A DNA stretch of 37,718 bases from a virus (Duplodnaviria > Heunggongvirae > Uroviricota > Caudoviricetes). Both the position numbers and the translations under genes were made by a program. The stretch is from IMG/VR virus record IMGVR_UViG_2617270964_000009. One strand, written 5' to 3'. This document shows, in pieces, positions 23,591 to 37,718 of this stretch (the first letter of the stretch is position 1; every line of letters starts with the position of its first letter). The notes below the pieces were generated by a model. It was not told the DNA's origin. It worked only from the letters and a program-made list of their open reading frames with translations, and ran no database searches.

Positions 23591-24237
23591 TTCTGTAATC
23601 CTTCCCGTTCATCCAGTAACGCGTTTATCTGGTTCCGCCAGCGACGACATTGTCCTGCGTTGTCGATGATGTTGGCGAGAACGTCACGCTGGGAGACACC
23701 CGAATCGCGTAACCGGGTGTCAGTGGTTTCAGGTTGCCCGGTCGCTGTGCCAGAGCGGGTGCCAGCGGCGGCAACTGAGTCTGAATGACCGGTGTCGACG
23801 GATGCGTTGTCATATCCGAGTGCGGCGTTGTACTGGCGCACGAAACCGCGAGTAAACACGCACTCAATGGGATGGCTCTTACCTTTTTCATCAATCCAGC
23901 GCTGTGTGACATCGTTAATTTGCCCCTGTAGTTGTTTATTCCGGCTCTCCAGTTGAGCAATCTGCTCAAGATAACCGGCTTCAGCCCGCTGCCCGGCGGC
24001 CACCTGCTCCTGATACCGTCTGGCCCAGGCCCGCAGCGCAGCATTCTCAAGCGTTGTCTGCTCCGTTTTGTACGCGTCAAATGCTGACTGCAACTGACTG
24101 AGCGCGGTATCACCGTCACGCTTTGCAGAGTCATGACCACTTCTGTATCCCATGGCATACAGGCCGACCAGAAAGGCATTGATAAGAATGGCCAGCAGAA
24201 TGCCGCGCCACGGCAGCTTTTTAACCAGATGCCACAC
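23587..24237 (-). CDS. Rz-like inner-membrane spanin (i-spanin), start taken at GTG 24237
   Basis: The GTG has a GGGGAGG Shine-Dalgarno 8 nt upstream; N-terminal TM (WRGILLAILINAFLVGLYAMGY) then a coiled-coil periplasmic region; an Rz1-like ORF is embedded in the +1 frame. Confidence 0.6.
   Translation of the reverse strand: MWHLVKKLPWRGILLAILINAFLVGLYAMGYRSGHDSAKRDGDTALSQLQSAFDAYKTEQTTLENAALRAWARRYQEQVAAGQRAEAGYLEQIAQLESRNKQLQGQINDVTQRWIDEKGKSHPIECVFTRGFVRQYNAALGYDNASVDTGHSDSVAAAGTRSGTATGQPETTDTRLRDSGVSQRDVLANIIDNAGQCRRWRNQINALLDEREGLQK
23625..23891 (-). CDS. Rz1-like outer-membrane lipoprotein spanin (o-spanin), embedded in Rz
   Basis: MKKVRAIPLSACLLAVSCAS: signal peptide with a lipobox-like AVSC; mature part is proline-rich (TPHSDMTTHPSTPVIQTQLPPLAPALAQRPGNLKPLTPGY). 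Confidence 0.55.
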   Translation of the reverse strand: MKKVRAIPLSACLLAVSCASTTPHSDMTTHPSTPVIQTQLPPLAPALAQRPGNLKPLTPGYAIRVSPSVTFSPTSSTTQDNVVAGGTR

Positions 24238-24961
24238 AACTGCTGCCTCCCCATGTGAGATATCGCGGTGCCAGTTCGCGCAGGATGCGCTGCGGATAAT
24301 GGCGGTTCTCCCGCCAGCTGGCCGCATTGCGTCCGGCATTCACCGTGGCGACATGTCCGAACCAGCGGGTGCTGTCCAGACCTTTCTGTGATGCAAGCCG
24401 CCTGTCCCGTTGTACCCAGCCCAGACCACCGTTATAGCCCGACAGTGTCATGGCCATACGCTCGCAGTCACTGGCGGCGCTGACACGCTGCCACAGCCAG
24501 CGGTCATAGCTGACCAGCGCCCGGATAGCCCATGCCGGATTAAACGGCTCACGACTGCTCAGCATCGGTATCAACTGGCTTATCCAGTCGGCAGTGGCAG
24601 GCATGAACTGCGCCAGTCCCTGAGCGCCAGCCGGCGAGATCGCATCAGGTCGCCAGCCGCTTTCCTGATGCAGTTGCGCGGCGAAATCGGCCACCGGCGC
24701 AGACAGTCCCCATTCAAGCCGGGCATTACGGATCACATCATCGCGATACTGCAGCGCAGCCTGCGGAGGTTGTGCTGCGCATGCCTGGCTGAAAAAGCCG
24801 CCACACCAGAGCAACATTGCGACAAAGAATACCCATGCCATATGAACCAGAAAGGTCCCGGCGCGGACTGACAGGCGTTCGGTTCTGATGAAGACCCGAA
24901 AGGCTTCGAAAGCCAGTTTCAGGGACATGCATACAATCCAGGTGATCTGCGGCCAGTTCAT
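24221..24961 (-). CDS. Endolysin, lytic transglycosylase (SLT-domain) type with N-terminal hydrophobic/SAR-like segment
   Basis: Contains HQESGW...GAQGLAQFMP, the SLT catalytic region with the catalytic Glu; TM-like MAWVFFVAMLLWCGGFF; ATG is 2 nt after the upstream stop. An alternative start at M41 (24841) is possible. Confidence 0.7.
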   Translation of the reverse strand: MNWPQITWIVCMSLKLAFEAFRVFIRTERLSVRAGTFLVHMAWVFFVAMLLWCGGFFSQACAAQPPQAALQYRDDVIRNARLEWGLSAPVADFAAQLHQESGWRPDAISPAGAQGLAQFMPATADWISQLIPMLSSREPFNPAWAIRALVSYDRWLWQRVSAASDCERMAMTLSGYNGGLGWVQRDRRLASQKGLDSTRWFGHVATVNAGRNAASWRENRHYPQRILRELAPRYLTWGGSSCVASG

Positions 24962-24963
24962 GA

Positions 24964-25314
24964 TTAAAGCCCCATCGCAACAGCCAGGCAGACCGCTGCA
25001 ACAATCAGTGCACGGCGGATTAACGCAGCAGAAAACACCAGGTGAAGGCCGGTCTGTACCGGGAAACGCCCTTCAGCCATCAGCCTGTCGTCATGTTTCA
25101 GGTACTGACCGGGACGGGCTTTGGGGAAGAGCGAACGGTCAAGCCAGTAACCCAGCACTGCTGCCAGCGTGATGAGTGCCAGCTTGTAGATCACAACAGG
25201 CAGCTGCTGTGGTGAGACCAGAGCGATGGTGCCCAGCAACAGCACTGAGGTCAGCAGCCAGCCGCTGAGGCGAGGTTTTTTAACAGGGGGAATGAATTTT
25301 TTCAGGTTTTTCAT
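24964..25314 (-). CDS. Holin-like membrane protein (3 predicted TM segments)
   Basis: Start chosen at ATG 25314 (MKNLKKF) with a GAGGAG Shine-Dalgarno 7 nt upstream; three hydrophobic helices; sits first in the lysis cassette. Confidence 0.5.
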   Translation of the reverse strand: MKNLKKFIPPVKKPRLSGWLLTSVLLLGTIALVSPQQLPVVIYKLALITLAAVLGYWLDRSLFPKARPGQYLKHDDRLMAEGRFPVQTGLHLVFSAALIRRALIVAAVCLAVAMGL

Positions 25315-25444
25315 GTGTGTCTCCTCGTTTGGTGGAGACAGCATCACAAATACAGGGCGCAAAGGATTTTAAAGCGCGTTAAGAGAGCCGGGGATACGGG
25401 ATGTGCAGGATAAACGATGAATTATTCACAGAGGAGAATACGAT

Positions 25445-26173
25445 ATGACGCACACACTGAATCCGGTCATCACTGTCACTGTGTCCGATCCTGTGGGCAG
25501 CGGTAAAAGTTACGTACTGGCGCGGATAGAAGAGATGGTGAAACAGGAACTCGGAAACAGCGTCATTGTCGATGCTGCTGACGTGGAGAATGAGCGCCGT
25601 ATGAATGGCGAAGATCTGACGACCTGGCAGAAGCCACGGGGTGGCACAGTGATCAGGCTGGAGGAATACACGGGACAGGGCCTGTTGTCATACGGCGAGG
25701 AGCGTATCTGTCGGACGAATGAGCTGCTGGATGTTATATGCCCCACGGGCCGGCAACCCTGGATACTGCCCGATGCACTGCATGCCACCATTGCGGCACT
25801 GATGACAGTTTACGATCAGGAGCTGCTCATGAAGGAGTTACGTAAACTCACCGGTCAGCCAACAGAATGTTGTTCGTCTCCGAAGTACGGCAAACAGGAA
25901 CACATCCCGATTAACCAGCCTCCCCGGTTCTTCGACGAATACCTTCTGACACCGGAAAATAAAGCTGAGCATGAAGAGATCAAAGCGGCGTTGTTCCGGG
26001 AAATCAGGAAGATTGCTGAAATGCAGTTGGGGGGCGGGCTGGACAGAGTGATGGCGAGAGGAGAATGGGCATCGCTGTTTGAAAGAGTTTCCCCGGAATT
26101 ACTTCCCCTCGCACTGGCTATCGGGATTATGCAGACAGCGGATAAACCTCACTTACGTTCATTAAACACGTAA
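25445..26173 (+). CDS. Hypothetical protein (242 aa) with a degenerate P-loop-like motif
   Basis: Strong RBS (GAGGAG, 7-nt spacing); N-terminal VTVSDPVGSGKSY resembles a Walker-A-like P-loop but is non-canonical; no other recognisable domain. Confidence 0.5.
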   Translation: MTHTLNPVITVTVSDPVGSGKSYVLARIEEMVKQELGNSVIVDAADVENERRMNGEDLTTWQKPRGGTVIRLEEYTGQGLLSYGEERICRTNELLDVICPTGRQPWILPDALHATIAALMTVYDQELLMKELRKLTGQPTECCSSPKYGKQEHIPINQPPRFFDEYLLTPENKAEHEEIKAALFREIRKIAEMQLGGGLDRVMARGEWASLFERVSPELLPLALAIGIMQTADKPHLRSLNT

Positions 26174-26553
26174 CGCATAATCCGGGATACGCATTCAGCG
26201 ATGACTGCATTTTCACCGGTTTTTACTGCATCCAGAAGTGACTCTTTAAATGGTACGGGCCGGGGCTGCAGAAAGGTCGGCATGGCATTGAGCAGACAGA
26301 GCGTTTTTTCCGTGAGGACGACATCAGCCGCTCCCACAGCCAGCAACTGAGAGTAACGAATATAGCTGTTATCCCGAAGCCATATCAGCGTATCAATAAA
26401 ACACCGGCACTTTTTCTGGTCGTGATCAACCTGGTCCGGGATATCGAAAAAACCAGAATAAATCAAAACCTGAGGTGCCGGATGCGTGTTCAGTAATCGG
26501 CAGAATATTTTGCCGGTGAGTACATAAAAATCATCATTTAAGGAGTGCATCAT
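26149..26553 (-). CDS. Hypothetical protein (134 aa)
   Basis: Starts ATGATG with GGGGA upstream; its 3' end overlaps the 242-aa ORF by 25 bp (convergent) and its start codon overlaps the 71-aa ORF start (divergent). Confidence 0.35.
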   Translation of the reverse strand: MMHSLNDDFYVLTGKIFCRLLNTHPAPQVLIYSGFFDIPDQVDHDQKKCRCFIDTLIWLRDNSYIRYSQLLAVGAADVVLTEKTLCLLNAMPTFLQPRPVPFKESLLDAVKTGENAVIAECVSRIMRYVFNERK

Positions 26554-26767
26554 GAATCCCCGATTAACGTTAACAGAACATCAGCGCCGTGCTGAAGCAG
26601 TGAACAATGTTCTGGAAGATATTATCCGGTTATACCGCGGAGAACTGAGTGTCTGTCGTGCCGCTTTTCATTTTCAGGGAATACAAAAGCAGTTTGATAC
26701 TTCTGTTTTTGCAGAAGGTATTACTTATGCCCTGGACCGGATAAGGTCAGAAAATCGCCCCGGATAA
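26552..26767 (+). CDS. Hypothetical small protein (71 aa)
   Basis: AAGGAG Shine-Dalgarno 6 nt upstream of the ATG; no recognisable motif. Confidence 0.4.
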   Translation: MNPRLTLTEHQRRAEAVNNVLEDIIRLYRGELSVCRAAFHFQGIQKQFDTSVFAEGITYALDRIRSENRPG

Positions 26768-26823
26768 TCCCTAAACCACATTAACAGAAATCCCGCCATC
26801 CCTGCCGCATCATGAAAGAACGA

Positions 26824-26851
26824 CCAGCCCGGCACCCGAAAGCCGGGCTGG
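26824..26851. other. GC-rich hairpin (ccagcccggc-acccgaaa-gccgggctgg) between the 71-aa ORF and dam
   Basis: Perfect 10-bp stem, 8-nt loop; no U-tract on the plus strand, so more likely an RNA structure or regulatory element than a canonical terminator. Confidence 0.35.
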
Positions 26852-26957
26852 TCATCGCCCCACAGGAATGCGCTGTGAGCCGACCAAGGTTCAGTCAGTC
26901 TCGCGAGACCTGACCAGACTGCCATATTTTTTAATAATTGTAAAAGGCTTACAGATT

Positions 26958-27725
26958 ATGAAAATGCAGACATTACCCATCGTGCCGTGGATTGGTGGCA
27001 AACGCCGCCTTGCAAAACACATTCTGCCGCTGTTTCCGGCGCATGAATGTTATGTGGAGCCGTTTTGTGGGGCAGCAGCGCTCTATTTTCTTAAGACACC
27101 CGGCAAGATCGAAGTCATCAATGATATCAACGGTGAACTGGTGAATCTGTACCGGGTGGTAAAGCATCACCTGGAAGAATTTGTCCGCCAGTTCAAATGG
27201 GCGCTGGTCAGCCGTCAGATCTACAAATGGCTGCAGATCACCCCGGAAGAAACACTGACGGATATCCAGCGTGCGGCACGGTTCTACTACCTCCAGAAGC
27301 AGGCGTTTGGTGGCAAGGTGGCAGAGCATAGTTTCGGCACCTCCACCACATCCCCGCCACGCTTCAACCTGCTGCGTATTGAGGAAGAGCTCTCAGCGGC
27401 ACACCTGCGACTTTCCAGAACGGTGATAGAACACATGGACTGGCAACAGTGCATTGAGCGTTATGACCGTCCGCACACGCTGTTCTACTGCGACCCACCG
27501 TACCTGGGTACGGAAGGCTATGGTGTGGATTTTCCTGAAGGGAACTACTCGCGGTTGGCAGAGCTGGCCCGTTGCATCAGAGGAAAGATGATTATATCGG
27601 TCAACGATATCCCGGAAATGCGGCAGGTTTTTAACGGTCTGAACATTCACTGTGTGAAGGTCAACTACAGTCTTGCAGGAAAGGGAACACTACGGCGCGA
27701 ACTTATTGTAAGTAATTTAGAGTAG
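26958..27725 (+). CDS. dam: DNA adenine methyltransferase, Dam/D12 class (N6-adenine)
   Basis: N-terminal PIVPWIGGKRRLAKHILPLFP, the AdoMet motif EPFCGAAALYF and the catalytic DPPY tetrapeptide (FYCDPPYLGTEGYG). Confidence 0.85.
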   Translation: MKMQTLPIVPWIGGKRRLAKHILPLFPAHECYVEPFCGAAALYFLKTPGKIEVINDINGELVNLYRVVKHHLEEFVRQFKWALVSRQIYKWLQITPEETLTDIQRAARFYYLQKQAFGGKVAEHSFGTSTTSPPRFNLLRIEEELSAAHLRLSRTVIEHMDWQQCIERYDRPHTLFYCDPPYLGTEGYGVDFPEGNYSRLAELARCIRGKMIISVNDIPEMRQVFNGLNIHCVKVNYSLAGKGTLRRELIVSNLE

Positions 27726-27750
27726 GCTCAGAAGGAGGTAAGTAGTCTTG

Positions 27751-27782
27751 CATAACAATGCACCTGATGGTGCATTGTTATG
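27751..27782. terminator. Perfect 14-bp stem / 4-nt loop hairpin between convergent dam and the RexB-like gene
   Basis: cataacaatgcacc-tgat-ggtgcattgttatg; overlaps the stop codon of the minus-strand gene and is followed by a moderately T-rich stretch on the plus strand. Confidence 0.4.
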
Positions 27783-28215
27783 ATATCACTTTGATTATAT
27801 TGAATAATCGCCTACCTGTTTGTAATAAACACAACATAGACATAACAACAAGCCCAATGAGGATAGCGGCTACAATCTCTTGATGCTTACTTTGCAGCAT
27901 CAACCCAATCAAACATGTCAACACCAACACTAGCAAAACTAAGCAAGTGTAGAATGCATCGGTCATCAGACGCTTGTAATGTCCGGTTTTTTGCATGTTT
28001 TTAAGTAACGGTTTATCAAGCAATGATGCAAGTAGTGCAATTGCTGTAATAATAAAACCTAACAACGTTGCAAAGACACTGGACAATGTAGTCATGAAGT
28101 TTGGGATTGCGGCTACTGGCATATGGGGCAACTTGAACCAGTAGAGAAAACCAATCCCACATCCAATCAATAAACTAAGCAATAGGGCCGAGTTCATCTT
28201 CTCCAATATATGCAT
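27778..28215 (-). CDS. RexB-like four-TM membrane protein (about 145 aa)
   Basis: Start taken at ATG 28215 (GGGAGAG Shine-Dalgarno, 5-nt spacing); four hydrophobic helices; the TLSSVFATLLGFIITAIALL segment resembles lambda RexB TM2 as recalled from memory; last gene of the repressor operon; low GC. Confidence 0.55.
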   Translation of the reverse strand: MHILEKMNSALLLSLLIGCGIGFLYWFKLPHMPVAAIPNFMTTLSSVFATLLGFIITAIALLASLLDKPLLKNMQKTGHYKRLMTDAFYTCLVLLVLVLTCLIGLMLQSKHQEIVAAILIGLVVMSMLCLLQTGRRLFNIIKVIS

Positions 28216-29068
28216 TGATACTCTCCCGGTTTTCAGCATACGCAGTATCGATTAGACGGTACATGGTTTCGGCTGGAGGGAAACGAGCGTCAGTAACTAC
28301 CGATTGATAGGACGAAATACGCTCGGCAATCAAATCCACAGGATGGACAACACCATCAGCATCGAACACATCAATTACAGCCTTTTTCGCCCCAAACTCG
28401 ACTAACTCTTGCATAGCAAATTTTATATTCTGCTTAAGCCTACCATCACTATCGCCACGGCGAGTATTAATCCCCATTACAATTTGCATTGTATCGGCAC
28501 CTGCATCACCAAGCAGTTGTAGTGTCTTTTGACTGAAATCAGTATCAGGGTAAAACTCAGGATTACGGGGGCGAGGAATCGTCAACTGGATTTTTTTCAT
28601 TTTGACATCTCCTCTCATAAGCCTAGCGATTGCATCTTTTTCCAGCAAAGGTGCGGGCTTAACCTTTGAACCAAAGATAGTTGAAAGAAATGCACTAAAA
28701 CGGCTTATACCACAAGCCATATGATTATAGTGCCAACCTATAACATTGATTCGAGGATAGAATACAAAGAAATTGCGCTCAATGATCCCTTCATCCTTGG
28801 CAAGTGGAATAGGGGTAGACTGTTTCCCTGGTGCACCTTTATCCGGAATGTTCGAGTTGCGAAATTTTCTCAACTCTCCACTAAAAGAACCATCCGCGCG
28901 TTTTTTCAACCCCCAAATTTCTCTAGTAAAACCCTCATGGTTTGAAGAGGAAGGGCTCTGTTTATCAATTACAGATTGAAAAGCATCTCCGAGATTTGCC
29001 AGCTGATCTGTGGCCTTAAACGATAGCTGATGAAACTCAATACGATAATTTCTCACATCACCACTCAT
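28175..29068 (-). CDS. RexA-like protein (297 aa), partner of the membrane protein
   Basis: AAGGA Shine-Dalgarno; sits directly downstream of the CI-like repressor in the same orientation; size near lambda RexA (279 aa); low GC. Homology is unverified. Confidence 0.5.
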   Translation of the reverse strand: MSGDVRNYRIEFHQLSFKATDQLANLGDAFQSVIDKQSPSSSNHEGFTREIWGLKKRADGSFSGELRKFRNSNIPDKGAPGKQSTPIPLAKDEGIIERNFFVFYPRINVIGWHYNHMACGISRFSAFLSTIFGSKVKPAPLLEKDAIARLMRGDVKMKKIQLTIPRPRNPEFYPDTDFSQKTLQLLGDAGADTMQIVMGINTRRGDSDGRLKQNIKFAMQELVEFGAKKAVIDVFDADGVVHPVDLIAERISSYQSVVTDARFPPAETMYRLIDTAYAENRESINAYIGEDELGPIA

Positions 29069-29190: not shown

Positions 29191-29607
29191 TTAACCCACA
29201 TTTTTTAACCGCTCAATCGTTGCGGATAATTCCTTCAGTTGTTTTTCCATCTCGATCACTCGCTGTTTTTCCGCAGCGCCTCGCAGAAGATCGTTACGAA
29301 CCTCGGGGTCTAGCTGCTTTAAAAGCTCAAGCATAGTAAGGTCAGCTTGGCTAAACTGCACTTGCGTCGGAGTTACGTCTACTTCTTTTGATAAACCTTG
29401 TTTTCTACCTGTTAGCAACCAATCTAAAGAAACCCCCTTTTCTTCTGCGATGTTTATGCAAATTGCATAAGGCACAGAATCACGCTTCCTCCAACTTGCA
29501 AGTGTCTGCCTATTGACGTTAAGCGCTCTTGCCAACTCACTATCATTCTCTGCTTGGAATAGTGACATTAACCGGGAAAGCACAGCGTTAACATCTTTGT
29601 TATTCAT
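29191..29607 (-). CDS. CI-like prophage repressor (HTH; no peptidase domain)
   Basis: SELARALNVNRQTLASWRKRDSVPYAICINIAEEKGVSLDWLLTG is the phage CI-repressor HTH signature; coiled-coil C-terminus; divergent from the ner-like gene. ATG at 29607 preferred over the track's upstream start at 29622. Confidence 0.75.
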   Translation of the reverse strand: MNNKDVNAVLSRLMSLFQAENDSELARALNVNRQTLASWRKRDSVPYAICINIAEEKGVSLDWLLTGRKQGLSKEVDVTPTQVQFSQADLTMLELLKQLDPEVRNDLLRGAAEKQRVIEMEKQLKELSATIERLKNVG

Positions 29608-29637
29608 TTTGCGTAATTCCACTTGATTTATTTATTT

Positions 29638-29695: not shown

Positions 29696-29920
29696 ATGAA
29701 TAAACAACAAGTTCGGGCACGACTAGTTGAACGAGGCAGTAGCTTGCGCCAGTTCGCGCTTAACGCAGGCTATGAGCCACGAACAGTCACACAGGCAGTC
29801 AGTCGCTGGGCTGGTAAAAGTGAACTACCACGTGGTCGTTTGACTTATCGGATTTTGCGAGATCTATCGGTTGCAATAGGTAAAGAAGTTACCCCCGGTA
29901 TCCTTAAGGAGGTGTCATGA
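29696..29920 (+). CDS. ner: Ner-like DNA-binding protein (Cro analogue of Mu-like phages)
   Basis: 74 aa; SLRQFALNAGYEPRTVTQAVSRWAG matches the Ner family pattern; first gene of the rightward early operon, divergent from the repressor. Confidence 0.65.
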   Translation: MNKQQVRARLVERGSSLRQFALNAGYEPRTVTQAVSRWAGKSELPRGRLTYRILRDLSVAIGKEVTPGILKEVS

Positions 29921-30225
29921 ATAAACCAAATACATCAAGCGCAGGTACCCGTATTTTGCGTGTTCTTAAGGCGTTACGTGGCCACGCTCTGAACGGTATC
30001 TCCAACGGTGAACTGGCGGCAGCACTGCACGAGTCACCAGCAAACATTAATCGGGCACTCAACACCCTCATTGAAGAAGGGCTGGCCCTGAAACTGGAGA
30101 ATGGACGTTTTGCACCGGGCATCCAGTTACTGCAGATCGCCATGGCTCACAGTAACGAGATGGCACGAGCGCAGGATCGTATTAACGAAATCAACCAACG
30201 TGTCATTTCAGGTAGTCGTTTATAA
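29917..30225 (+). CDS. Putative winged-helix DNA-binding protein (102 aa)
   Basis: AAGGAGG Shine-Dalgarno; start overlaps the ner stop; GISNGELAAALHESPANINRALNTLIEEGLA looks like an HTH. Confidence 0.45.
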   Translation: MNKPNTSSAGTRILRVLKALRGHALNGISNGELAAALHESPANINRALNTLIEEGLALKLENGRFAPGIQLLQIAMAHSNEMARAQDRINEINQRVISGSRL

Positions 30226-30235
30226 GGAGTAATCA

Positions 30236-31147
30236 ATGGGACGTACCAAATCACCAATGTCCACTGATCTGAATGCTGAGGTGCCGCTGTCTGATGATCT
30301 CAACATCAGTCTTAATACCATGGCACAACACCGCGTGGAGATCATGCAGCAGTTCGGCGATGGTCTGCCTTATGAACGTGATCGCATTGTTCACGAAGCA
30401 CGCTTTTATATGGCACAAAGTGCTGAGGCCATGCTAGAGGCAGGTAAACGACTGATAATACTGAAAGAAAATGAACCACATGGTGATTTCATAAATATTG
30501 TCGAGTCTGAATTATCAATGTCAAAGCGTACTGCACAGGTAATGATGCAGGCATCAATAAAATATTTATCACCACAACTTGAGTCAAAAGCGCAGACGTT
30601 TGCGCTTTTAGGAAAAGCCAAATTATTCGAGTTAATGACGGAAGACGATGAAAACCTTGCCGAACTGGCTGATGGTGGCACTGTTGCCGGCCTGACGCTT
30701 GACGACGTTGATCGCATGTCAGTACGCGAACTTCGCCAGGCCCTGCGCGAAGCGCGCGAAACCAACGCAGCACAACAGCGCGTACTCGCCGATAAAAATG
30801 AAAAAATTGATTCTCTCTCTACCAGACTGGAAAAGAAATCCCGTATTCAGCCGCCTGAGCCTGATGAGGAGGTTAAGAAGCTGCGGGCGGAAGTGACAGC
30901 ATTAGCGGTTGAGGCGGAATCTGCTATCGCCGTCCGACTGTCCAGCGCTTTTGAGACACTGTGCGCATATTGTGCTGAAAACATGATTGATACCCCCAGA
31001 GACTTCATGGCAGGCCTGGTCTGTCAACTGGAAAGCACAGCGCGTAGCCTGCGCTCCACATTTGACCTGCCGGACGAGCCAACAGGCAATGCAGCGCCTT
31101 CATGGCTGACTGAGCCGACGCCACAGATTAACGGGCTGGAGGCATAA
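30236..31147 (+). CDS. Hypothetical early protein (303 aa), acidic with coiled coil
   Basis: AGGAG Shine-Dalgarno; immediately upstream of the transposase; no recognisable catalytic motif. Confidence 0.45.
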   Translation: MGRTKSPMSTDLNAEVPLSDDLNISLNTMAQHRVEIMQQFGDGLPYERDRIVHEARFYMAQSAEAMLEAGKRLIILKENEPHGDFINIVESELSMSKRTAQVMMQASIKYLSPQLESKAQTFALLGKAKLFELMTEDDENLAELADGGTVAGLTLDDVDRMSVRELRQALREARETNAAQQRVLADKNEKIDSLSTRLEKKSRIQPPEPDEEVKKLRAEVTALAVEAESAIAVRLSSAFETLCAYCAENMIDTPRDFMAGLVCQLESTARSLRSTFDLPDEPTGNAAPSWLTEPTPQINGLEA

Positions 31148-31150
31148 CCA

Positions 31151-32920
31151 ATGAATGCTGCCCTGACTGAACGACTGGTTTATGTCGCCCGCGCGGCACG
31201 TGACGCGGGGCATGGTAAACGCGGTGCAATATACGACGCTGCCTGTGCTGAACTTGGCATGTCCCGCGCCACTCTGCTGCGCAGGCTGAAGGAGGTCTCT
31301 GTGACTGATAAACGCAAAAAACGCGCCGATGCCGGGCGCAGCGCCCTGACCCGCGACGAAGCCGCGCTGATATCTGCCACACTGCGTGAGGCCACCCGCA
31401 AGAACGGTAAGCGTCTCTATTCCATCGCGGATGCAGTGGAAACCCTGCGGGCTAACGGCTTTATCTCCGCAGGCAGAACAGATGAAACCACCGGTGAGTT
31501 TTTCCCGTTGTCCGAAGATGCCATCAGCCGTGCCCTGCGTAACTATGGCCTGCACCCGGAACAACTGGATGCCCCTGCGCCGCATACCGAAGTGGCCAGT
31601 CTGCATCCCAATCATGTCTGGCAGATTGATGCCTCGCTCTGCACGCTTTACTACCTGAGCAATGGACACAAAGGGCTGCAGGTGATGGACAGCGCGAAAT
31701 TCTACAAGAACAAGCCCGCTAACCTTGCCCGTATCGCCAGTGACCGCGTGTGGAGTTATGAGATTACCGACCATGCCAGCGGCTGGATTTACGTTGAGTA
31801 TGTGACGGGTGCGGAATCCGGTGAGAACCTGTGTTCTGTGCTTATCAACGCCATGCAGGAGCGTGGCGGCGCAGACGTGCTGCACGGCGTGCCAAAAATA
31901 CTCTATCTCGACCCCGGCTCGGCAAACACCGCGGGTATGACGAAAAACATGTGCCGCTCACTGGGCATTGACCTGATAGCGCACAAGCCGCATAACGCCC
32001 GCGCCACCGGACAGGTGGAAAAGGCGCGAGACATTATCGAACGCAAGCTGGAGCCGGGTCTGAAGTTCCGGCCGGTTCACAGTCTGGAAGAACTCAACGC
32101 GCTGGCCGCGAAATGGCGCAGCCACTTTAACGCCACGGCTGTTCACAGCCGCCACGGTAAAACCCGCACGGATATCTGGCTGAAGATTACTACTGAGCAG
32201 CTGAAAAAAGCGCCTTCCGTTGAGGTATGTCGTGAACTGGCTGTGGCGGCACCAGAACTCCGCAAAGTCACGCCAAAACTTCGTGTCTCGTTCCGGGGCA
32301 CTGAATTTGACGTATCAACGGTACCGGGCGTACTGGTCGGTGAAAAACTGATGATTACCCGTAACCCGTGGCGCAGCGATGTGGCACAGGTGGTTCTGAC
32401 CGGTGAGGACGGCCACGAGACGTTCTTCCTGGTCGAAGAGGTCAGAAAGAACGAGTTTGGCTTTGCTGAAGGCGCGGCGGTATTTGGCGAAAGTTACAAA
32501 GCCCTGCCGGAAACACCGGCGCAGACGGCGGCAAAAGAAACTGAAGCGCTGGTCACCGGTACAGACAACGCCACAGATGCAGCTGTCGCACGCAAGGCGA
32601 AGGCGCTGCCGTTCGGCGGGCGGCTTGACCCGTATAAACATATTGATGACGCCACACTTCCGGCCTATATGCCGAAGCGCGGTCAGGCCTCTGACGTACG
32701 CGGGCCGCGCACTGAACAACGTCCCATGACTCATGTGGAGGCCGCGAAAGCCCTGCGCGATAAGTTCAGCGCCGACGGCCTTACCTGGACGCCGGAACAT
32801 TACCGCCAGTTAACGGCACAGTACCCGGACGGCGTACCGGAAGCCGCACTGGATGAAGTCATGGCCACGCTGACCACACCGGCCCGCAGCAGTGTTATCA
32901 GCATTGTTAACGGCAACTGA
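31151..32920 (+). CDS. DDE transposase (Mu A / TnsB / rve-superfamily)
   Basis: Candidate DDE triad: D in VWQIDAS, D in ILYLDPGSAN, E about 35 aa later in ATGQVEKARD; followed by an AAA+ ATPase gene as in MuA-MuB; GGAGG Shine-Dalgarno. Confidence 0.75.
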   Translation: MNAALTERLVYVARAARDAGHGKRGAIYDAACAELGMSRATLLRRLKEVSVTDKRKKRADAGRSALTRDEAALISATLREATRKNGKRLYSIADAVETLRANGFISAGRTDETTGEFFPLSEDAISRALRNYGLHPEQLDAPAPHTEVASLHPNHVWQIDASLCTLYYLSNGHKGLQVMDSAKFYKNKPANLARIASDRVWSYEITDHASGWIYVEYVTGAESGENLCSVLINAMQERGGADVLHGVPKILYLDPGSANTAGMTKNMCRSLGIDLIAHKPHNARATGQVEKARDIIERKLEPGLKFRPVHSLEELNALAAKWRSHFNATAVHSRHGKTRTDIWLKITTEQLKKAPSVEVCRELAVAAPELRKVTPKLRVSFRGTEFDVSTVPGVLVGEKLMITRNPWRSDVAQVVLTGEDGHETFFLVEEVRKNEFGFAEGAAVFGESYKALPETPAQTAAKETEALVTGTDNATDAAVARKAKALPFGGRLDPYKHIDDATLPAYMPKRGQASDVRGPRTEQRPMTHVEAAKALRDKFSADGLTWTPEHYRQLTAQYPDGVPEAALDEVMATLTTPARSSVISIVNGN

Positions 32921-32930
32921 GGAGGGAAAC

Positions 32931-34097
32931 ATGCTGGTACTGAAGCAGCAACTGAAAGAGGCCCGTATTCCACAGGCGGTGGTGGCGAGAGCTGTCGATG
33001 TTTCTGAGGCCACGCTGGCCCAGATTGTGAATCATAACGCGTGGCCCCGCACCAGCCCCGGAGAAGTGCGCCGGCGTCTTGCGTCCTGGCTGGAAAGTCA
33101 GGGGATTGATACAACGAAGAGTTTTGATGCTGTACAGGGCGCGGCCACGCCCCGTACAGCGGGTACCACAGATAAAACGAGCCTCAGTGAGGAAGAGAAT
33201 ATGTTACTCAAAAAACAGGTGTTATTTCCAGCAACCAAAAAAGCGTTTGGTCTTTTCCGTGACCCGTTCGCCGACGAAGCCATGCAGGGTTCTGATGATG
33301 TGTTCACCACCCCGGATATTCGCTACGTGCGTGAGGCGTTGTACCAGACAGCCCGTCATGGTGGGTTTATGGCCGTCATCGGTGAGTCCGGTGCGGGTAA
33401 ATCCACGCTGCGCCGCGACCTGACTGAACGTATCAACCGCGAGAATGCGCCGGTAATTGTTATCGAGCCATACATCATCGCTATGGAAGACAACGATGTG
33501 AAAGGGAAAACCCTGAAGGCAGCAGCGATTGCCGAAGCCATTATCAGTACCATCGCACCACTGGAAAGCATCAGACGCAGTCAGGACGCCCGCTTTCGCC
33601 AGTTGCATCGCGTCCTGAAAGACAGCAGCCAGGCGGGGTTCAGCCACGTTCTGGTGATTGAGGAGGCCCACAGTCTGCCCATTCCGACACTGAAACACCT
33701 CAAACGCTTTTTTGAGCTGGAGTCCGGTTTCAAAAAACTGCTGTCCATCGTGCTGATTGGCCAGCCGGAACTGGCGACAAAACTGTCTGAACGCAATATG
33801 GAAGTCCGTGAAGTCGTTCAGCGCTGTGAGGTGGTCGAACTTCTGCCTCTGGACAATAACCTTGAAGAGTTTCTGACGTTCAAACTGCAACGGGCCGGTA
33901 AACAACTGACGGACATTATGGACGCCAGCGCAGTGGATGCCATACGTGCCCGCCTGAGCAATCCGGGAAGTCATCGTAAAAATATGGTCAGCCTGCTGTA
34001 TCCGCTGGCCGTCAGTAACCTGGTAATAGCCGCCATGAATCTGGCCGCTGAAATCGGGGTTCCACAGGTCAACGCTGACGTTGTCAAAGGGGTTTAA
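32931..34097 (+). CDS. Transposition ATPase (Mu B analogue; TniB/ExeA-type AAA+)
   Basis: Walker A in VIGESGAGKSTL and Walker-B-like VLVIEEAH; start at ATG 32931 with a GGAGGG Shine-Dalgarno. Confidence 0.75.
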   Translation: MLVLKQQLKEARIPQAVVARAVDVSEATLAQIVNHNAWPRTSPGEVRRRLASWLESQGIDTTKSFDAVQGAATPRTAGTTDKTSLSEEENMLLKKQVLFPATKKAFGLFRDPFADEAMQGSDDVFTTPDIRYVREALYQTARHGGFMAVIGESGAGKSTLRRDLTERINRENAPVIVIEPYIIAMEDNDVKGKTLKAAAIAEAIISTIAPLESIRRSQDARFRQLHRVLKDSSQAGFSHVLVIEEAHSLPIPTLKHLKRFFELESGFKKLLSIVLIGQPELATKLSERNMEVREVVQRCEVVELLPLDNNLEEFLTFKLQRAGKQLTDIMDASAVDAIRARLSNPGSHRKNMVSLLYPLAVSNLVIAAMNLAAEIGVPQVNADVVKGV

Positions 34098-34099
34098 TA

Positions 34100-34369
34100 A
34101 TGAAATCCACCACAGGTATCAACCAGCAAATCAGCAAAGTGCAGTCAGCCATTATGGCGCTTAAGGCGACGAACACGGATGTACAAAGCATCACCATCAG
34201 GGGTAACAAACCTGTCATCCGCGTTTCCCGGAGTGCGCATTGCATGCGCATGCTTGAGCAGGGAAAGGCCTGTTATCTGTATACCGGTCATGACCACAGG
34301 GGACATTTCCGTCAGGGCGTTTTCGAACTGCACGGCTGTCGCGTCGTGTGGCCGGAATCTTTGTGGTAA
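34100..34369 (+). CDS. Hypothetical early protein (89 aa)
   Basis: Good RBS; translationally coupled to the upstream ATPase; no recognisable motif. Confidence 0.4.
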   Translation: MKSTTGINQQISKVQSAIMALKATNTDVQSITIRGNKPVIRVSRSAHCMRMLEQGKACYLYTGHDHRGHFRQGVFELHGCRVVWPESLW

Positions 34370-34396
34370 TCAGCACAACAGGAGGAGTCATAAAAT

Positions 34397-34927
34397 ATGG
34401 CAAAAAGTACAAAAGGGGCAAAACGTATCAAAGCCGCAGCAGCACTCTGGGTGCCGGGGACACGCGAAGAGGTCATTGAGGGAATCAGACTGCTTGGTGA
34501 CGCGCAACGTGAACTGGTCAGGGCTGAAACAGAAATGAATGACACCATTGGCGACATCACTGCACGTTATGCCCCGCTCACCGAGAGCCTGAAAAAACGC
34601 ATGGCCGAACTGCAGTCCGGTATCCAGACATGGTGTGAGGCGCACCGTGATGAACTGACCGGCAACGGGAAGGTGAAGTTCGCTAACCTCACCACCGGCG
34701 AGGTGCAGTGGCGAAACCGTCCGCCATCAGTCAGTATCCGTGGGGCGGATAATGTTATTGAATTACTGAGACGTCTGGGGCTTGAGCGCTTTATTCGTGT
34801 AAAAGAGGAAATAAATAAAGACGCTATCCTGAATGAAAAAGAGGCCGTGAAAAATATTCCCGGTATTTCCATTAAAAGCGACATTGAGGATTTTTCAATA
34901 ATTCCTTTTGAGCAGGATGTGCAGTAA
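34397..34927 (+). CDS. gam: Host-nuclease inhibitor protein Gam (Mu Gam family)
   Basis: 176 aa; MAKSTKGAKRIKAAAALWVP...NRPPSVSIRGADNVIELLRRLGLERFIRVKEEINKDAIL...IEDFSIIPFEQ is nearly colinear with Mu Gam (174 aa) as recalled from memory. Confidence 0.85.
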   Translation: MAKSTKGAKRIKAAAALWVPGTREEVIEGIRLLGDAQRELVRAETEMNDTIGDITARYAPLTESLKKRMAELQSGIQTWCEAHRDELTGNGKVKFANLTTGEVQWRNRPPSVSIRGADNVIELLRRLGLERFIRVKEEINKDAILNEKEAVKNIPGISIKSDIEDFSIIPFEQDVQ

Positions 34928-35024
34928 ACACACCACGTTAATTATTTAATAAAAACATTTTCTTTTTTATTCCGGCGTCAGCGCCGTGGGCTTCTGCACG
35001 CCGGAAACAGAGGAGAATTAAATT

Positions 35025-35219
35025 ATGATATTTAAATGTATTCAGTGCGAGAGGGATATAACAGCCCTGCGTTTTCACAGCGCCATCGCCGTGATGTCCG
35101 GTAAATACCACATCCCTGCGGTACGCGTCACCCTGGTCTGTCCGTACTGCAGCCAGCATTTTTCGGCGGACGTGCCCGTCATGGAATTCTCCCGCCCTGA
35201 CAGGGAGGACGCGCAATGA
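35025..35219 (+). CDS. Small zinc-ribbon protein (CxxC...CxxC), 64 aa
   Basis: Cysteine pairs C5/C8 and C39/C42; GAGGAG Shine-Dalgarno. Confidence 0.45.
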   Translation: MIFKCIQCERDITALRFHSAIAVMSGKYHIPAVRVTLVCPYCSQHFSADVPVMEFSRPDREDAQ

Positions 35220-35488
35220 TTACCCCACAGGAAGCACGACAGCGCACCCGAACCCTTGTTGAACACTATGTCAACGAGTGTGAATGCCGCGACCTCACCG
35301 ATGTGAAGCACGTCCTGACGGCGTTAATCAGCATGGCCGCTCAGGCCATTGTGGCAACCAACGGAAAGGCGGCTGCCCTGCAGGTACTGATGAACACACT
35401 CACCCACACGGCAGAGCACGAGGTGCCGTACCGGGTGGAAACCACTGCAGAAGGCGGCCTGAACATCACCGTCGACCGGAAACACTGA
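35216..35488 (+). CDS. Hypothetical early protein (90 aa)
   Basis: ATGA start/stop overlap with the upstream gene; no recognisable motif. Confidence 0.4.
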   Translation: MITPQEARQRTRTLVEHYVNECECRDLTDVKHVLTALISMAAQAIVATNGKAAALQVLMNTLTHTAEHEVPYRVETTAEGGLNITVDRKH

Positions 35489-35497
35489 GGGCGCGGC

Positions 35498-35803
35498 ATG
35501 ACACGGAACACCGAACTCACCCGCACCGCCCTCTACCGTCTGGCCCTGCAGCGTTTCGGTCCGGATGCACAGGCCCTGAAACTGACAGAAGAGGCCGCTG
35601 AACTGGCGGCCAGTGCTGCCCGCAACCTGAACGGACAGGGCAGCGAAAGTGACCTCGCGGCAGAGCTGGCAGACGTGGAAATCATGACAGAGCAGCTGCG
35701 CCTTCAGGGGATGGACCGGCTGATTGACTTCCACAAACAGAAAAAACTGGAACGCCTTGCCGCACGGCTGGGCGTCATGTACACCGGAGATACTGAACAA
35801 TGA
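35498..35803 (+). CDS. MazG-like nucleotide pyrophosphohydrolase domain protein (101 aa)
   Basis: TEEAAELAASAAR ... SDLAAELADVEIMTEQL matches the paired EExxE / ExxD metal-binding helices of the MazG/HisE all-alpha NTP-PPase fold; GAGGG Shine-Dalgarno. Confidence 0.5.
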   Translation: MTRNTELTRTALYRLALQRFGPDAQALKLTEEAAELAASAARNLNGQGSESDLAAELADVEIMTEQLRLQGMDRLIDFHKQKKLERLAARLGVMYTGDTEQ

Positions 35804-36483
35804 CAGACCAGGATAAACACATTGAGAAACTGAAAAAGTTGCTGGCGCTGGCCGCATCCGGCAACCCTCACGAGGCCGCTCTGGCACTGCGCCGCGCCCG
35901 TAAACTGATGGATGTTCACGGCATCACACATTCCGACATCGCCATGAGTGATATTGATGAAACCATCAGTCACTACTGGCCGACAGGCAGCCTCCGTCCG
36001 CCGCGCTACATGCAGGGCCTGATGAACATCATCCGCGAGGCATTTGGTGTTAACTCCATCATTCACCCCGGCACATATCCGGGTGTGGGGTTCTACGGCA
36101 ACCGGGAACGGGCCGCACTGGCCGCGTACACCTGGGAAGTGCTGGCCCGTCAGCTGAAAAAGGCGCGTCAGCAGTATATCAGTGCACAGAACAAAAGAAT
36201 AAAAACCGCCACCCGCACCAGCCGTGGAGACCAGTTTGCTGAAGGCTGGGTGCTGGCCGTTATCAGTGAAATACAGTCCTTCGCCTTGACCGATGACGAA
36301 CGTGAACTGATGCAGCAGTGGCTGGAACATAAATACCCGCAGACGCAAACCACCAGGGCGCGTAAACCGGGAAGAAGTCGCAATGGCGACGCCTCGCGCT
36401 ATGCGGGGTTTCGAGAAGGGCAGAACGTCAGACTGCACCGACCGGTCAGTGGGCGGGAACAGCAGAAACTGGAGGCCAGATGA
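35800..36483 (+). CDS. Hypothetical early protein (227 aa), DUF2786-like N-terminus
   Basis: N-terminal HIEKLKKLLALAASGNPHEAALALRRARKLMDVHGI motif; start overlaps the upstream stop; preferred over the antisense ORF 35704..36438. Confidence 0.45.
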   Translation: MTDQDKHIEKLKKLLALAASGNPHEAALALRRARKLMDVHGITHSDIAMSDIDETISHYWPTGSLRPPRYMQGLMNIIREAFGVNSIIHPGTYPGVGFYGNRERAALAAYTWEVLARQLKKARQQYISAQNKRIKTATRTSRGDQFAEGWVLAVISEIQSFALTDDERELMQQWLEHKYPQTQTTRARKPGRSRNGDASRYAGFREGQNVRLHRPVSGREQQKLEAR

Positions 36484-36710
36484 TTACGTTATCAGGTAAC
36501 AGCCGGAAATTAAAAGCCTGCCGAATATCTGCCAGATACCTTTTTGCCCGCGCCTTTTTTAAGAACGTCAGGCCGGGGATCACAATTGGTGTTATTGCCG
36601 GACGCGAACAGGTTGAAAAATACATGTCAGGTGCATGGTGGAATAAAGACCCTGTCATTGCTGCCCGTAATATTCATATCAGTTGGGGGGATATTCAGAA
36701 TGACGGCTGA
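36480..36710 (+). CDS. Hypothetical small protein (76 aa)
   Basis: GGAGG Shine-Dalgarno; translationally coupled. Confidence 0.35.
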   Translation: MITLSGNSRKLKACRISARYLFARAFFKNVRPGITIGVIAGREQVEKYMSGAWWNKDPVIAARNIHISWGDIQNDG

Positions 36711-36915
36711 ATCTGTTGTATGTGCCCTGTTCTGGTATTGTTTTGTCGGTTGGTGTACTGCTGAACTGCACCGCCGTTCAGGGTTTTATTCACGTTACAG
36801 TGGTGCCGGTTACTGGATTAGCTGGTCGGTGATGTTCCTGTGCTGGCCTGTGGCACTTCCTTTATATGTCGATTATATCGGTGATGCAGGCAGAAGGAGC
36901 AACGATGATGACTAA
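36700..36915 (+). CDS. Small membrane protein (71 aa)
   Basis: Start ATG 36700 after a GGGGG Shine-Dalgarno; two hydrophobic helices (VVCALFWYCFVGWCT, ISWSVMFLCWPVALPLYV). Confidence 0.4.
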   Translation: MTAESVVCALFWYCFVGWCTAELHRRSGFYSRYSGAGYWISWSVMFLCWPVALPLYVDYIGDAGRRSNDDD

Positions 36916-37357
36916 ACAACGTCTTATCCAGCTCATTCATATTGCCCGTAATGAACTGGGTATGGATGAAGACAGCTACCGCCAGATGTTACAGGGGCTG
37001 ACCGGTAAAGCCTCAACCAAAGGAATGGATACCACACAACTAAACTGCGTGCTGGAATCCATGAAAAGGAAAGGCTTTCGCGTTAAGCCTGCCGGAAAAG
37101 CCAGCTCCGGTTTACCGCTGGATAACCATCCGCAGTCCAGGAAAATCCGTGCGCTATGGCTTGAAATGGCTGCTGCCGGCATTGTTCGTGACCGTTCAGA
37201 AAATGCATTAGCGCGGTGGATCAAGCGGGAAACGGGCATCAGCGCCCTGCGCTGGCTCAATACTGAACAGGCAAGCAGTGTTATTGAGAAACTGAAGAAG
37301 TGGCAGCGCAGAGCTGCGGGAGTAAAACATGAGCGACCTGAATCAGTTTCGAAGTAA
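36905..37357 (+). CDS. gemA: GemA-like regulatory protein (Mu gp16 family)
   Basis: KQRLIQLIHIARNELGMDEDSYRQMLQGLTGKAS...QLNCVLESMKRKGF follows the GemA N-terminal pattern; AGGAG Shine-Dalgarno; immediately precedes mor. Confidence 0.65.
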   Translation: MMTKQRLIQLIHIARNELGMDEDSYRQMLQGLTGKASTKGMDTTQLNCVLESMKRKGFRVKPAGKASSGLPLDNHPQSRKIRALWLEMAAAGIVRDRSENALARWIKRETGISALRWLNTEQASSVIEKLKKWQRRAAGVKHERPESVSK

Positions 37358-37718
37358 AGGGCCGGAACTCCTGGTGGAACTGGCACAGCATACCTCTGAG
37401 ACCGTTCGCGAGATTATTGATATTGAGCCCGCAATTGCCGACCAGATTGGTCAGGCCGTCGCGAACCGCATGATGCAGGTCTGGGGCGGGCAAAACGTTT
37501 ATTTCCCGATGGGCATGGTATGGAAGGTCAGTCAGCGCGATCGGGAAATCTTCAGGGAGTTTAACGGACGTAACCACCATGAACTGGCCCGCAAATTTGG
37601 TGTTTCGCTTCAGTGGGTCTACAGCGTGGTTAAGCGGGTAAGAAAAGAAGAACTGGATCGGATGCAGGGCAAGCTATTTGCTGATGAACCCGATGTAGAT
37701 ACGGAGAAAAAAGAGTAA
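37329..37718 (+). CDS. mor: Mor-like middle-operon transcriptional activator (Mor/C family)
   Basis: C-terminal GGQNVYFPMG...FNGRNHHELARKFGVSLQWVYSVVKR matches the Mor/C HTH region; GGGAG Shine-Dalgarno; the window ends at its stop codon. Confidence 0.8.
   Translation: MSDLNQFRSKGPELLVELAQHTSETVREIIDIEPAIADQIGQAVANRMMQVWGGQNVYFPMGMVWKVSQRDREIFREFNGRNHHELARKFGVSLQWVYSVVKRVRKEELDRMQGKLFADEPDVDTEKKE

What the first reader, a model, noticed from the sequence alone, without database searches (positions are those of the whole stretch)
35498..35803. MazG-like nucleotide pyrophosphohydrolase among the early genes
A 101-aa protein with the paired acidic helices of the MazG/HisE fold (EEAAEL ... ELADVEI) is expressed with the early operon. 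Phage MazG-like enzymes can hydrolyse (d)NTPs or alarmone/signalling nucleotides, so this is a candidate host-takeover or counter-defence factor.
Basis: partly seen in the sequence, partly recalled or inferred. Interest (0 to 1): 0.5.

Follow-up and report, generated by a model that had tools for sequence, protein, structure and literature searches.

The report
Small MazG-type nucleotide pyrophosphatase, Mu-like prophage
The 101-residue gene is real and is a small MazG-type nucleotide pyrophosphatase in the early region of a Mu-like E. coli prophage, but public databases already label the identical protein this way and its substrate and role are still unknown, so the finding is ordinary.

Summary
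The ORF at 35498..35803 (+) exists exactly as described. It has a Shine-Dalgarno site and evolves under purifying selection (dN/dS 0.13-0.26).

The window is a BcepMu-like transposable prophage of E. coli, and 621 of 5426 complete genomes hold this region. The gene lies in the early operon between gam and gemA/mor. That position holds in 76-78 of the 80 closest viral contigs.

The MazG assignment is supported:
- PHROG 2245 "nucleoside triphosphate pyrophosphohydrolase" matches at E = 3.8e-34.
- The identical RefSeq protein WP_000197789.1 already carries that name.
- The metal-binding residues E31/E32/E35 and E56/D59 are invariant or nearly so across 65 diverse relatives.

The protein belongs to a very large family: 10,609 clusters at 50% identity. 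Most members are unannotated, Pfam does not capture them, and they occur in phages of many phyla.

The most likely mechanism is a Mg2+-dependent dimer that converts (d)NTP to (d)NMP plus PPi during lytic growth. Substrate and role are untested. The counter-defence idea has no supporting evidence. Hydrolysis of cyclic nucleotides is chemically unlikely for this fold.

Verdict: already known in kind and by annotation; low interest.

The parts
35487..35491 (+). Shine-Dalgarno-like GAGGG, 6 nt upstream of the ATG; it overlaps the TGA stop (35486-35488) of the upstream 90-aa ORF
   Evidence: Read directly from the sequence
35498..35803 (+). Coding sequence of the 101-aa MazG-like NTP pyrophosphohydrolase family protein, identical to RefSeq WP_000197789.1
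35588..35602 (+). Codons for E31-E32-A-A-E35, the first acidic motif (EExxE) on the first long helix; predicted metal ligands
   Evidence: E31 in 65/65, E32 in 63/65, E35 in 64/65 homologues; aligned to the EEMGE of the Bacillus MazG structure 5ie9
35663..35695 (+). Codons for E56-L-A-D59-V-E61-I-M-T-E65-Q66, the second acidic motif (ExxD) plus a family-specific extension (ADVEIMxEQ) on the second long helix
   Evidence: E56 in 64/65, D59 in 65/65, Q66 in 65/65, E61 in 54/65, E65 in 55/65; aligned to the EELGD of 5ie9
35735..35758 (+). Codons for K80..K83..R86-L87, conserved basic residues on the C-terminal helix segment; inferred phosphate-binding residues
   Evidence: K80 in 58/65, K83 in 63/65, R86 in 64/65, L87 in 65/65. 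The role is inferred by analogy with the basic residues that act on the substrate in the dimeric dUTPase described in PMC10014863
35800..35803 (+). ATGA overlap of the stop codon with the start of the downstream DUF2786/DUF7168 gene (35800-36483), which suggests translational coupling
29917..37718 (+). Early operon context, in order: Ner-like HTH, DUF3102, transposase, MuB-like AAA+, HI_1482-like, Gam, 64-aa ORF, 90-aa ORF, MazG-like, DUF2786, two small ORFs, GemA, Mor
   Evidence: No convincing + strand terminator or promoter lies inside the block, and site counts are at chance level

Best explanation
The gene encodes a small single-domain enzyme of the all-alpha NTP pyrophosphohydrolase (MazG/HisE/dimeric dUTPase) superfamily. 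It is carried as an accessory gene in the early, Mu 'semi-essential'-type region of a BcepMu-like transposable prophage of E. coli. By analogy with solved MazG proteins, two copies should pair their long helices into a four-helix bundle. E31/E32/E35 from one helix and E56/D59 from the next would hold Mg2+ ions that activate water to cleave the alpha-beta phosphoanhydride bond of a (deoxy)nucleoside triphosphate, giving the monophosphate plus pyrophosphate. The conserved K80/K83/R86 would hold the phosphates, and Y13 and the aromatic residue at position 20 would probably contact the base. The gene would be transcribed with the early operon after derepression, so it would act during replicative transposition. 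Its most likely job is to trim or sanitise the nucleotide pool that the host replisome uses to copy the phage, for example by removing dUTP or other non-canonical dNTPs. Shown here: gene reality, family and fold, conserved catalytic residues, conserved genomic position. Inferred: oligomer state, chemistry, time of expression. Unknown: substrate and benefit to the phage.
Confidence: 0.8

Rival explanations
1. Counter-defence enzyme. The protein hydrolyses a nucleotide made by a host immune system, for example a chain-terminating ddhNTP from prokaryotic viperins, ITP/dITP from RADAR-type deaminases, or a signal molecule that contains a pyrophosphate bond. This would protect lytic replication.
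For: It lies in an early accessory region alongside other host-directed genes such as Gam. The gene is kept in that position across diverged Mu-like phages. The family is widespread in phages of many phyla. NTP pyrophosphohydrolase chemistry would suit triphosphate antiviral nucleotides; that is inference, not a result.
Against: There is no direct evidence. Literature searches found no MazG-type anti-defence protein. PADLOC gives no hits, although it holds defence models rather than anti-defence ones. The gene is not specifically associated with defence or anti-defence neighbours; distant relatives sit in replication and recombination modules. CBASS/Pycsar cyclic nucleotides lack the phosphoanhydride bond this fold cleaves.
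Confidence: 0.1
2. Alarmone control. The protein lowers (p)ppGpp, as proposed for E. coli MazG, so that a starved or stressed host stays permissive for phage replication and late gene expression.
For: This is the classical hypothesis for phage MazG genes (discussed in PMC6850273 and PMC2297514). Temperate Mu-like phages often induce in slow-growing cells; that is general knowledge, not tested here.
Against: The purified cyanophage MazG showed no binding or hydrolysis of (p)ppGpp and preferred dGTP and dCTP. The protein here is only distantly related to E. coli MazG and has one domain, not two.
Confidence: 0.05
3. Non-enzymatic helical protein. The protein is a small coiled-coil regulator or adaptor, in the way dimeric phage dUTPases also act as signalling proteins, and the acidic motif is incidental.
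Confidence: 0.05

Closest known systems
Sulfolobus solfataricus MazG SSO3215 (PDB 1vmg)
   Different: Sequence similarity is marginal (E 0.4). It is an archaeal chromosomal protein, not a phage gene. As far as I know its substrate is also not established.
Integron-cassette iMazG from Vibrio DAT722 (PDB 2q5z, 2q73, 2q9l)
   Different: It lies in an integron cassette rather than a phage early operon. From memory of the published work, it is a tetramer that prefers dCTP and dATP; neither property was tested for the protein here.
Bacillus-conserved MazG (PDB 5ie9)
   Same: 103 residues. It is the only PDB MazG whose alignment was printed residue by residue; EExxEL and EExxDV align in the same register as E31-L36 and A55-V60 of the query, that is E56 and D59.
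   Different: Weak scores (E 0.01; Foldseek TM about 0.4). It lacks the family-specific ADVEIMxEQ extension and the K83/R86 pattern.
Phage MazG-type enzymes studied experimentally: cyanophage S-PM2 MazG (PMC6850273) and cyanophage S-2L MazZ (PDB 7ody, PMC8342488)
   Same: Phage-encoded members of the same superfamily that act on (d)NTP pools. 7ody appears in the Foldseek list.
   Different: These are lytic cyanophages. S-PM2 MazG prefers dGTP and dCTP. From memory, MazZ supplies dGMP for 2-aminoadenine synthesis. The prophage here shows no base-replacement pathway. Similarity is weak (E 2.4, TM 0.35).
E. coli MazG (PDB 3cra) and HisE/PRA-PH (1yvw, 6j22)
   Different: E. coli MazG has two tandem domains (263 aa) and lies in the mazEFG/relA locus. 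HisE acts on phosphoribosyl-ATP in histidine synthesis. hhalign against E. coli MazG was not significant.

Membership tests
All-alpha NTP pyrophosphohydrolase superfamily (MazG / HisE / dimeric dUTPase) | All-helical fold built on a pair of long antiparallel helices | tested here: met
All-alpha NTP pyrophosphohydrolase superfamily (MazG / HisE / dimeric dUTPase) | Conserved acidic metal-binding residues: E-x-x-E on one helix and E-x-x-D on the next (EEXX(E/D) motif, PMC10014863) | tested here: met
   The query has E31-E32-x-x-E35, then 20 residues, then E56-x-x-D59. These are conserved in 63-65 of 65 diverse homologues and align in register with 5ie9.
All-alpha NTP pyrophosphohydrolase superfamily (MazG / HisE / dimeric dUTPase) | Homodimer (or tetramer) that forms the four-helix-bundle active site | not tested
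The extended hairpin of the monomer model is compatible with dimerisation but does not show it.
All-alpha NTP pyrophosphohydrolase superfamily (MazG / HisE / dimeric dUTPase) | Mg2+-dependent hydrolysis of NTP to NMP + PPi | not testable with these tools
   This needs a biochemical assay.
Pfam MazG (PF03819) / PRA-PH (PF01503) / MazG-like (PF12643) | Score at or above the family's gathering threshold | tested here: not met
   The query's only hit is PRA-PH at 14.9 bits against a cutoff of 21.3. None of the listed homologues carries a precomputed Pfam domain. 15 of 65 relatives hit PF03819 only weakly, best E 2.2e-5. The protein therefore belongs to the superfamily but not to a curated Pfam family.
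PHROG 2245 (nucleoside triphosphate pyrophosphohydrolase) | Significant full-length match to the family profile | tested here: met
   E=3.8e-34, 119 bits, residues 1-100 aligned to profile positions 113-214 of 218. The name is an annotation, not a tested function.
Early ('semi-essential') accessory region of Mu-type transposable phages | Same-strand position downstream of transposase, B and gam, and upstream of gemA and mor | tested here: met
   Window gene order. The E. coli and Dickeya prophages show the same order. GemA is downstream in 78 of 80 related viral contigs and Mor in 76 of 80. Co-transcription itself was not tested.
Known anti-phage defence systems (PADLOC) | Match to a model of a known or candidate defence protein | tested here: not met
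   No PADLOC hit at E<=0.01. PADLOC has no anti-defence models, so this says nothing about a counter-defence role.

The most novel reading that the evidence does not exclude
This Pfam-uncaptured branch of small MazG-like proteins comprises about 10,600 clusters at 50% identity and is almost entirely phage-borne. It could be a general phage tool for destroying immune-made nucleotides, such as viperin ddhNTPs, deaminase-derived ITP/dITP/dUTP, or signals that contain a pyrophosphate bond. In that case its fixed position in the early region of Mu-like phages would reflect a counter-defence role rather than housekeeping.
Probability: 0.1. Interest if true: 0.6.

Novelty: already known. Interest (0 to 1): 0.15.

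Why it matters
As it stands this is a routine annotation. The identical protein is already named an NTP pyrophosphohydrolase family protein in RefSeq, and its PHROG family carries the same label.

Two points have modest value. First, the protein belongs to a very large, mostly phage-borne branch of the MazG superfamily that Pfam does not capture and that many records still call 'hypothetical'. Second, this branch is a stable component of the early region of BcepMu-like transposable phages across Enterobacterales, and 621 of 5426 complete E. coli genomes hold this region.

No member appears to have been characterised. A substrate screen on this easily expressed 101-residue protein would therefore assign a function to thousands of phage genes. 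It would also test directly the long-standing and so far poorly supported ideas about why phages carry MazG.

Tried and rejected
- **Single-sequence phmmer against the PDB.** It returned only spurious weak hits (IWS1, EsrB) and no MazG.
- **hhalign of the 65-sequence family profile against E. coli MazG.** Probability 0.6% over an 11-residue alignment. This is uninformative because the template was a single sequence.
- **First AF2 run with 14 close sequences.** Mean pLDDT was 83.6 and the models were inconsistent. A run with 65 diverse sequences replaced it.
- **Search for informative domain fusions in longer homologues.** I found none; most of the extra length has no Pfam match and may reflect gene-calling differences.
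- **Promoter and terminator scan of the early region.** Site counts were at shuffle level. The scan neither supports nor contradicts a single early transcript.
- **PADLOC.** No hits.
- **Literature searches for MazG as an anti-defence factor, MazG in BcepMu-like phages, and MazG with viperin nucleotides.** Nothing relevant to this protein. MazG domains are mentioned only as predicted defence effectors on the bacterial side.
- **Genome-contig scan with alignment A3.** I repeated it with A2.
- **The 187-aa ORF on the opposite strand (35324..35887, -).** I considered it as an alternative gene and rejected it. The codon-level selection and the deep protein family belong to the + frame.

Full report
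**1. The observation**

Both quoted strings are present, EEAAEL at residues 31-36 and ELADVEI at residues 56-62.

A GAGGG Shine-Dalgarno sequence lies 6 nt upstream of the ATG and overlaps the stop codon of the previous ORF. The gene's own stop overlaps the next start codon as ATGA. This is the tight packing typical of a phage operon.

The acidic pattern alone is weak evidence. EE..[ED]-(12-28)-E..D turns up in 0.6% of shuffles of this protein. It also occurs by chance in the neighbouring Gam protein.

Two further results show that the gene is real. Against orthologues of 60-75% protein identity, and against near-identical E. coli copies, the + frame has dN/dS of 0.13-0.26. An exhaustive profile search found 10,609 cluster representatives at E<=0.001 and 2,078 at E<=1e-10.

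**2. The surroundings**

The window is a Mu-type transposable prophage of the BcepMu kind.
- Positions 34000-37718 are 96.7% identical to Escherichia phage PhiKM, which is classified in Bcepmuvirus.
- The segment 35216-36483 is present in 621 of 5,426 complete E. coli genomes, always on the chromosome.
- Late, lysis and cargo genes occupy roughly the first 29 kb, mostly on the - strand.
- A CI-type repressor lies at 29191-29622 (-).
- The early operon runs on the + strand from 29917 to the end of the window. Its order is Ner-like HTH, DUF3102, transposase, MuB-like AAA+ protein, an HI_1482-like protein, Gam, a 64-aa ORF, a 90-aa ORF, the target gene, a DUF2786/DUF7168 protein, two small ORFs, GemA and Mor.

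The target therefore lies in the equivalent of Mu's 'semi-essential' early region. That comparison rests on established knowledge of Mu, not on a test here.

This placement is conserved. Of the 80 closest viral contigs that encode a relative (down to 45% identity), 78 have GemA downstream and 76 have Mor. In 63-66 of them the transposase and MuB-like genes lie upstream within the 4-kb flank. Dickeya prophages show the same order, with the gene directly after gam. The immediate neighbours vary: DUF2786 is present in 54 of 80 contigs and the 90-aa ORF in 38 of 80. The gene thus behaves as an independent accessory module.

A simple promoter and terminator scan gave only chance-level counts inside the operon. 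Co-transcription is inferred from gene order and has not been shown.

**3. What the protein is**

Sequence evidence:
- PHROG 2245, 'nucleoside triphosphate pyrophosphohydrolase', matches at E=3.8e-34, and three other NTP-PPase/MazG PHROGs match weakly.
- The identical protein, WP_000197789.1, is named 'nucleoside triphosphate pyrophosphohydrolase family protein' in current RefSeq annotation. Older records and PhiKM call it hypothetical.
- Curated models do not capture it. The best Pfam hit is PRA-PH at 14.9 bits against a cutoff of 21.3, and the best NCBIfam hit is a HisI-type model at 14.4 bits against 42.7.
- None of the listed homologues carries a precomputed Pfam domain.
- Among 65 diverse relatives, 15 hit Pfam MazG PF03819 at E<0.01.
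- The 65-sequence profile picks up five solved MazG-type proteins (5ie9, 2q73, 2q5z, 2gta, 1vmg) at E 0.01-0.4. In the 5ie9 alignment, the only one printed residue by residue, the EExxE and ExxD motifs align in register.

Structural evidence:
- With the diverse alignment, AlphaFold2 gives a confident model (mean pLDDT 95) of two long helices, residues 9-44 and 50-90.
- Foldseek against the PDB was not significant, although MazG-superfamily entries also head that list.
- Against predicted viral structures, the best matches have TM 0.72-0.79 and E about 1e-4, and are phage proteins annotated as NTP pyrophosphohydrolases.

Active site:
- E31 and D59 are invariant across the 65 relatives, which share 29-67% identity with the query. 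E32, E35 and E56 are kept in 63-64 of 65.
- Q66, K83, R86, L87, G21, Q25, Y13 and an aromatic residue at position 20 are also almost invariant.
- The Glu/Glu/Glu/Asp arrangement is the Mg2+ site described for Mtb MazG (E119, E122, E138, D141) and for C. jejuni dUTPase. The dUTPase also uses basic residues to act on the substrate (PMC10014863).

**4. Mechanism**

My best explanation has a confidence of about 0.8 for the enzyme class and much less for the physiological role.

The protein is probably a Mg2+-dependent (d)NTP pyrophosphohydrolase. It would act as a dimer or tetramer, use the five conserved acidic residues to bind metal, and release (d)NMP plus PPi. It would be made early after derepression, while the phage replicates by transposition on the host replisome.

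The fold, the residues and the genomic position are shown. The oligomer state, the chemistry and the timing are inferred. The substrate is unknown.

I favour a nucleotide-pool role, meaning removal of dUTP or other non-canonical dNTPs. This is the function demonstrated for most characterised relatives. It also fits the distant family members, which sit in the replication and recombination modules of unrelated temperate phages next to SSB, RusA-like, annealing-protein and helicase genes.

**5. Rival readings**

- *Counter-defence (about 0.1).* This is chemically reasonable only for triphosphate molecules or molecules that contain a pyrophosphate bond. Nothing here supports it. Cyclic oligonucleotide signals lack the bond this fold cleaves.
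- *Alarmone control (about 0.05).* The cyanophage MazG result weakens this idea: no binding or hydrolysis of (p)ppGpp, and a preference for dGTP and dCTP (PMC6850273).
- *A purely structural or regulatory helical protein (about 0.05).* This fits poorly with active-site-like conservation.

**6. Comparison and novelty**

[quoted passage not shown] The closest structures are the small single-domain MazG proteins 1vmg, iMazG and 5ie9.

It is not a member of any curated Pfam family at threshold. It represents a large branch that is mostly phage-borne and mostly labelled 'hypothetical'. Annotated phage members exist in Clostridium, Cellulophaga, Xanthomonas, Terrisporobacter and Fusobacterium phages. 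Genomic relatives span Enterobacterales, Bdellovibrionaceae, Methylococcaceae, Clostridia and Bacteroidaceae.

Because the identical sequence already carries this name in RefSeq and the PHROG family is so annotated, I rate the finding as already known. What remains open is the substrate and the benefit to the phage. I found no characterised member of this branch.

**7. Verdict**

The finding is ordinary: interest 0.15.

Noticed in passing
window 25445-29068: Between the lysis genes (holin 24964-25362, SLT transglycosylase 24221-24961, both on the - strand) and the CI-type repressor lies a mixed-strand block. It holds a Dam-like D12 N6-adenine DNA methyltransferase (26868-27725, +; Pfam E=1.2e-29) and four ORFs of unknown function: 242 aa (+), 134 aa (-), 153 aa (-) and 297 aa (-). 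These four match only PHROGs of unknown function and have no PADLOC hits. The position is typical of lysogeny-expressed cargo ('morons'), which could include defence genes.
   Followed up: partly
window 35025-35219 (+): This 64-aa ORF has a CxxC...CPxC pattern (a zinc-ribbon-like pattern) and matches phrog_3401 (unknown function) at E=1.2e-40. The PhiKM GenBank record instead annotates an ORF on the opposite strand here. In some relatives (P0037) this ORF is fused in frame to the MazG-like gene.
   Followed up: partly
window 35780-35803, compared with L001 4001-4527 (PhiKM) and L014-L033: The MazG-like gene has two C-terminal alleles in E. coli prophages. The 101-aa form overlaps the DUF2786 start, as in this window. 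The 98-aa form ends ...VTYTGEII and is followed by an extra 216-bp ORF before DUF2786. This marks a recombination junction at the 3' end of the gene.
   Followed up: partly
proteins P0011, P0030, P0031 (169 aa): Some Mu-like prophages encode the MazG-like domain with a conserved C-terminal extension of about 70 residues (...LPxRELLEDWCGAVPNSAFIGA...). It has no Pfam match. It could be a real fusion partner or a read-through into a neighbouring gene.
   Followed up: no
window 35800-36483 (+): The downstream gene encodes a DUF2786 + DUF7168 protein (phrog_421, unknown function). It may be translationally coupled to the MazG-like gene and is present in 54 of the 80 related contigs. It is a widespread phage and plasmid protein of unknown function.
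   Followed up: partly
L002 8503-9575 (E. coli Ecol_745, NZ_CP015074.2): In this chromosome the prophage ends within about 160 bp downstream of mor. It interrupts a DUF2300-family gene next to an alpha-2-macroglobulin family gene, as expected for insertion by transposition. Several genomes carry 2-3 copies of the region.
   Followed up: no
window 34397-34927 (Gam): Gam also contains a chance match to the EE..[ED]-(12-28)-E..D pattern. This shows that the motif alone does not identify a MazG protein.
   Followed up: yes
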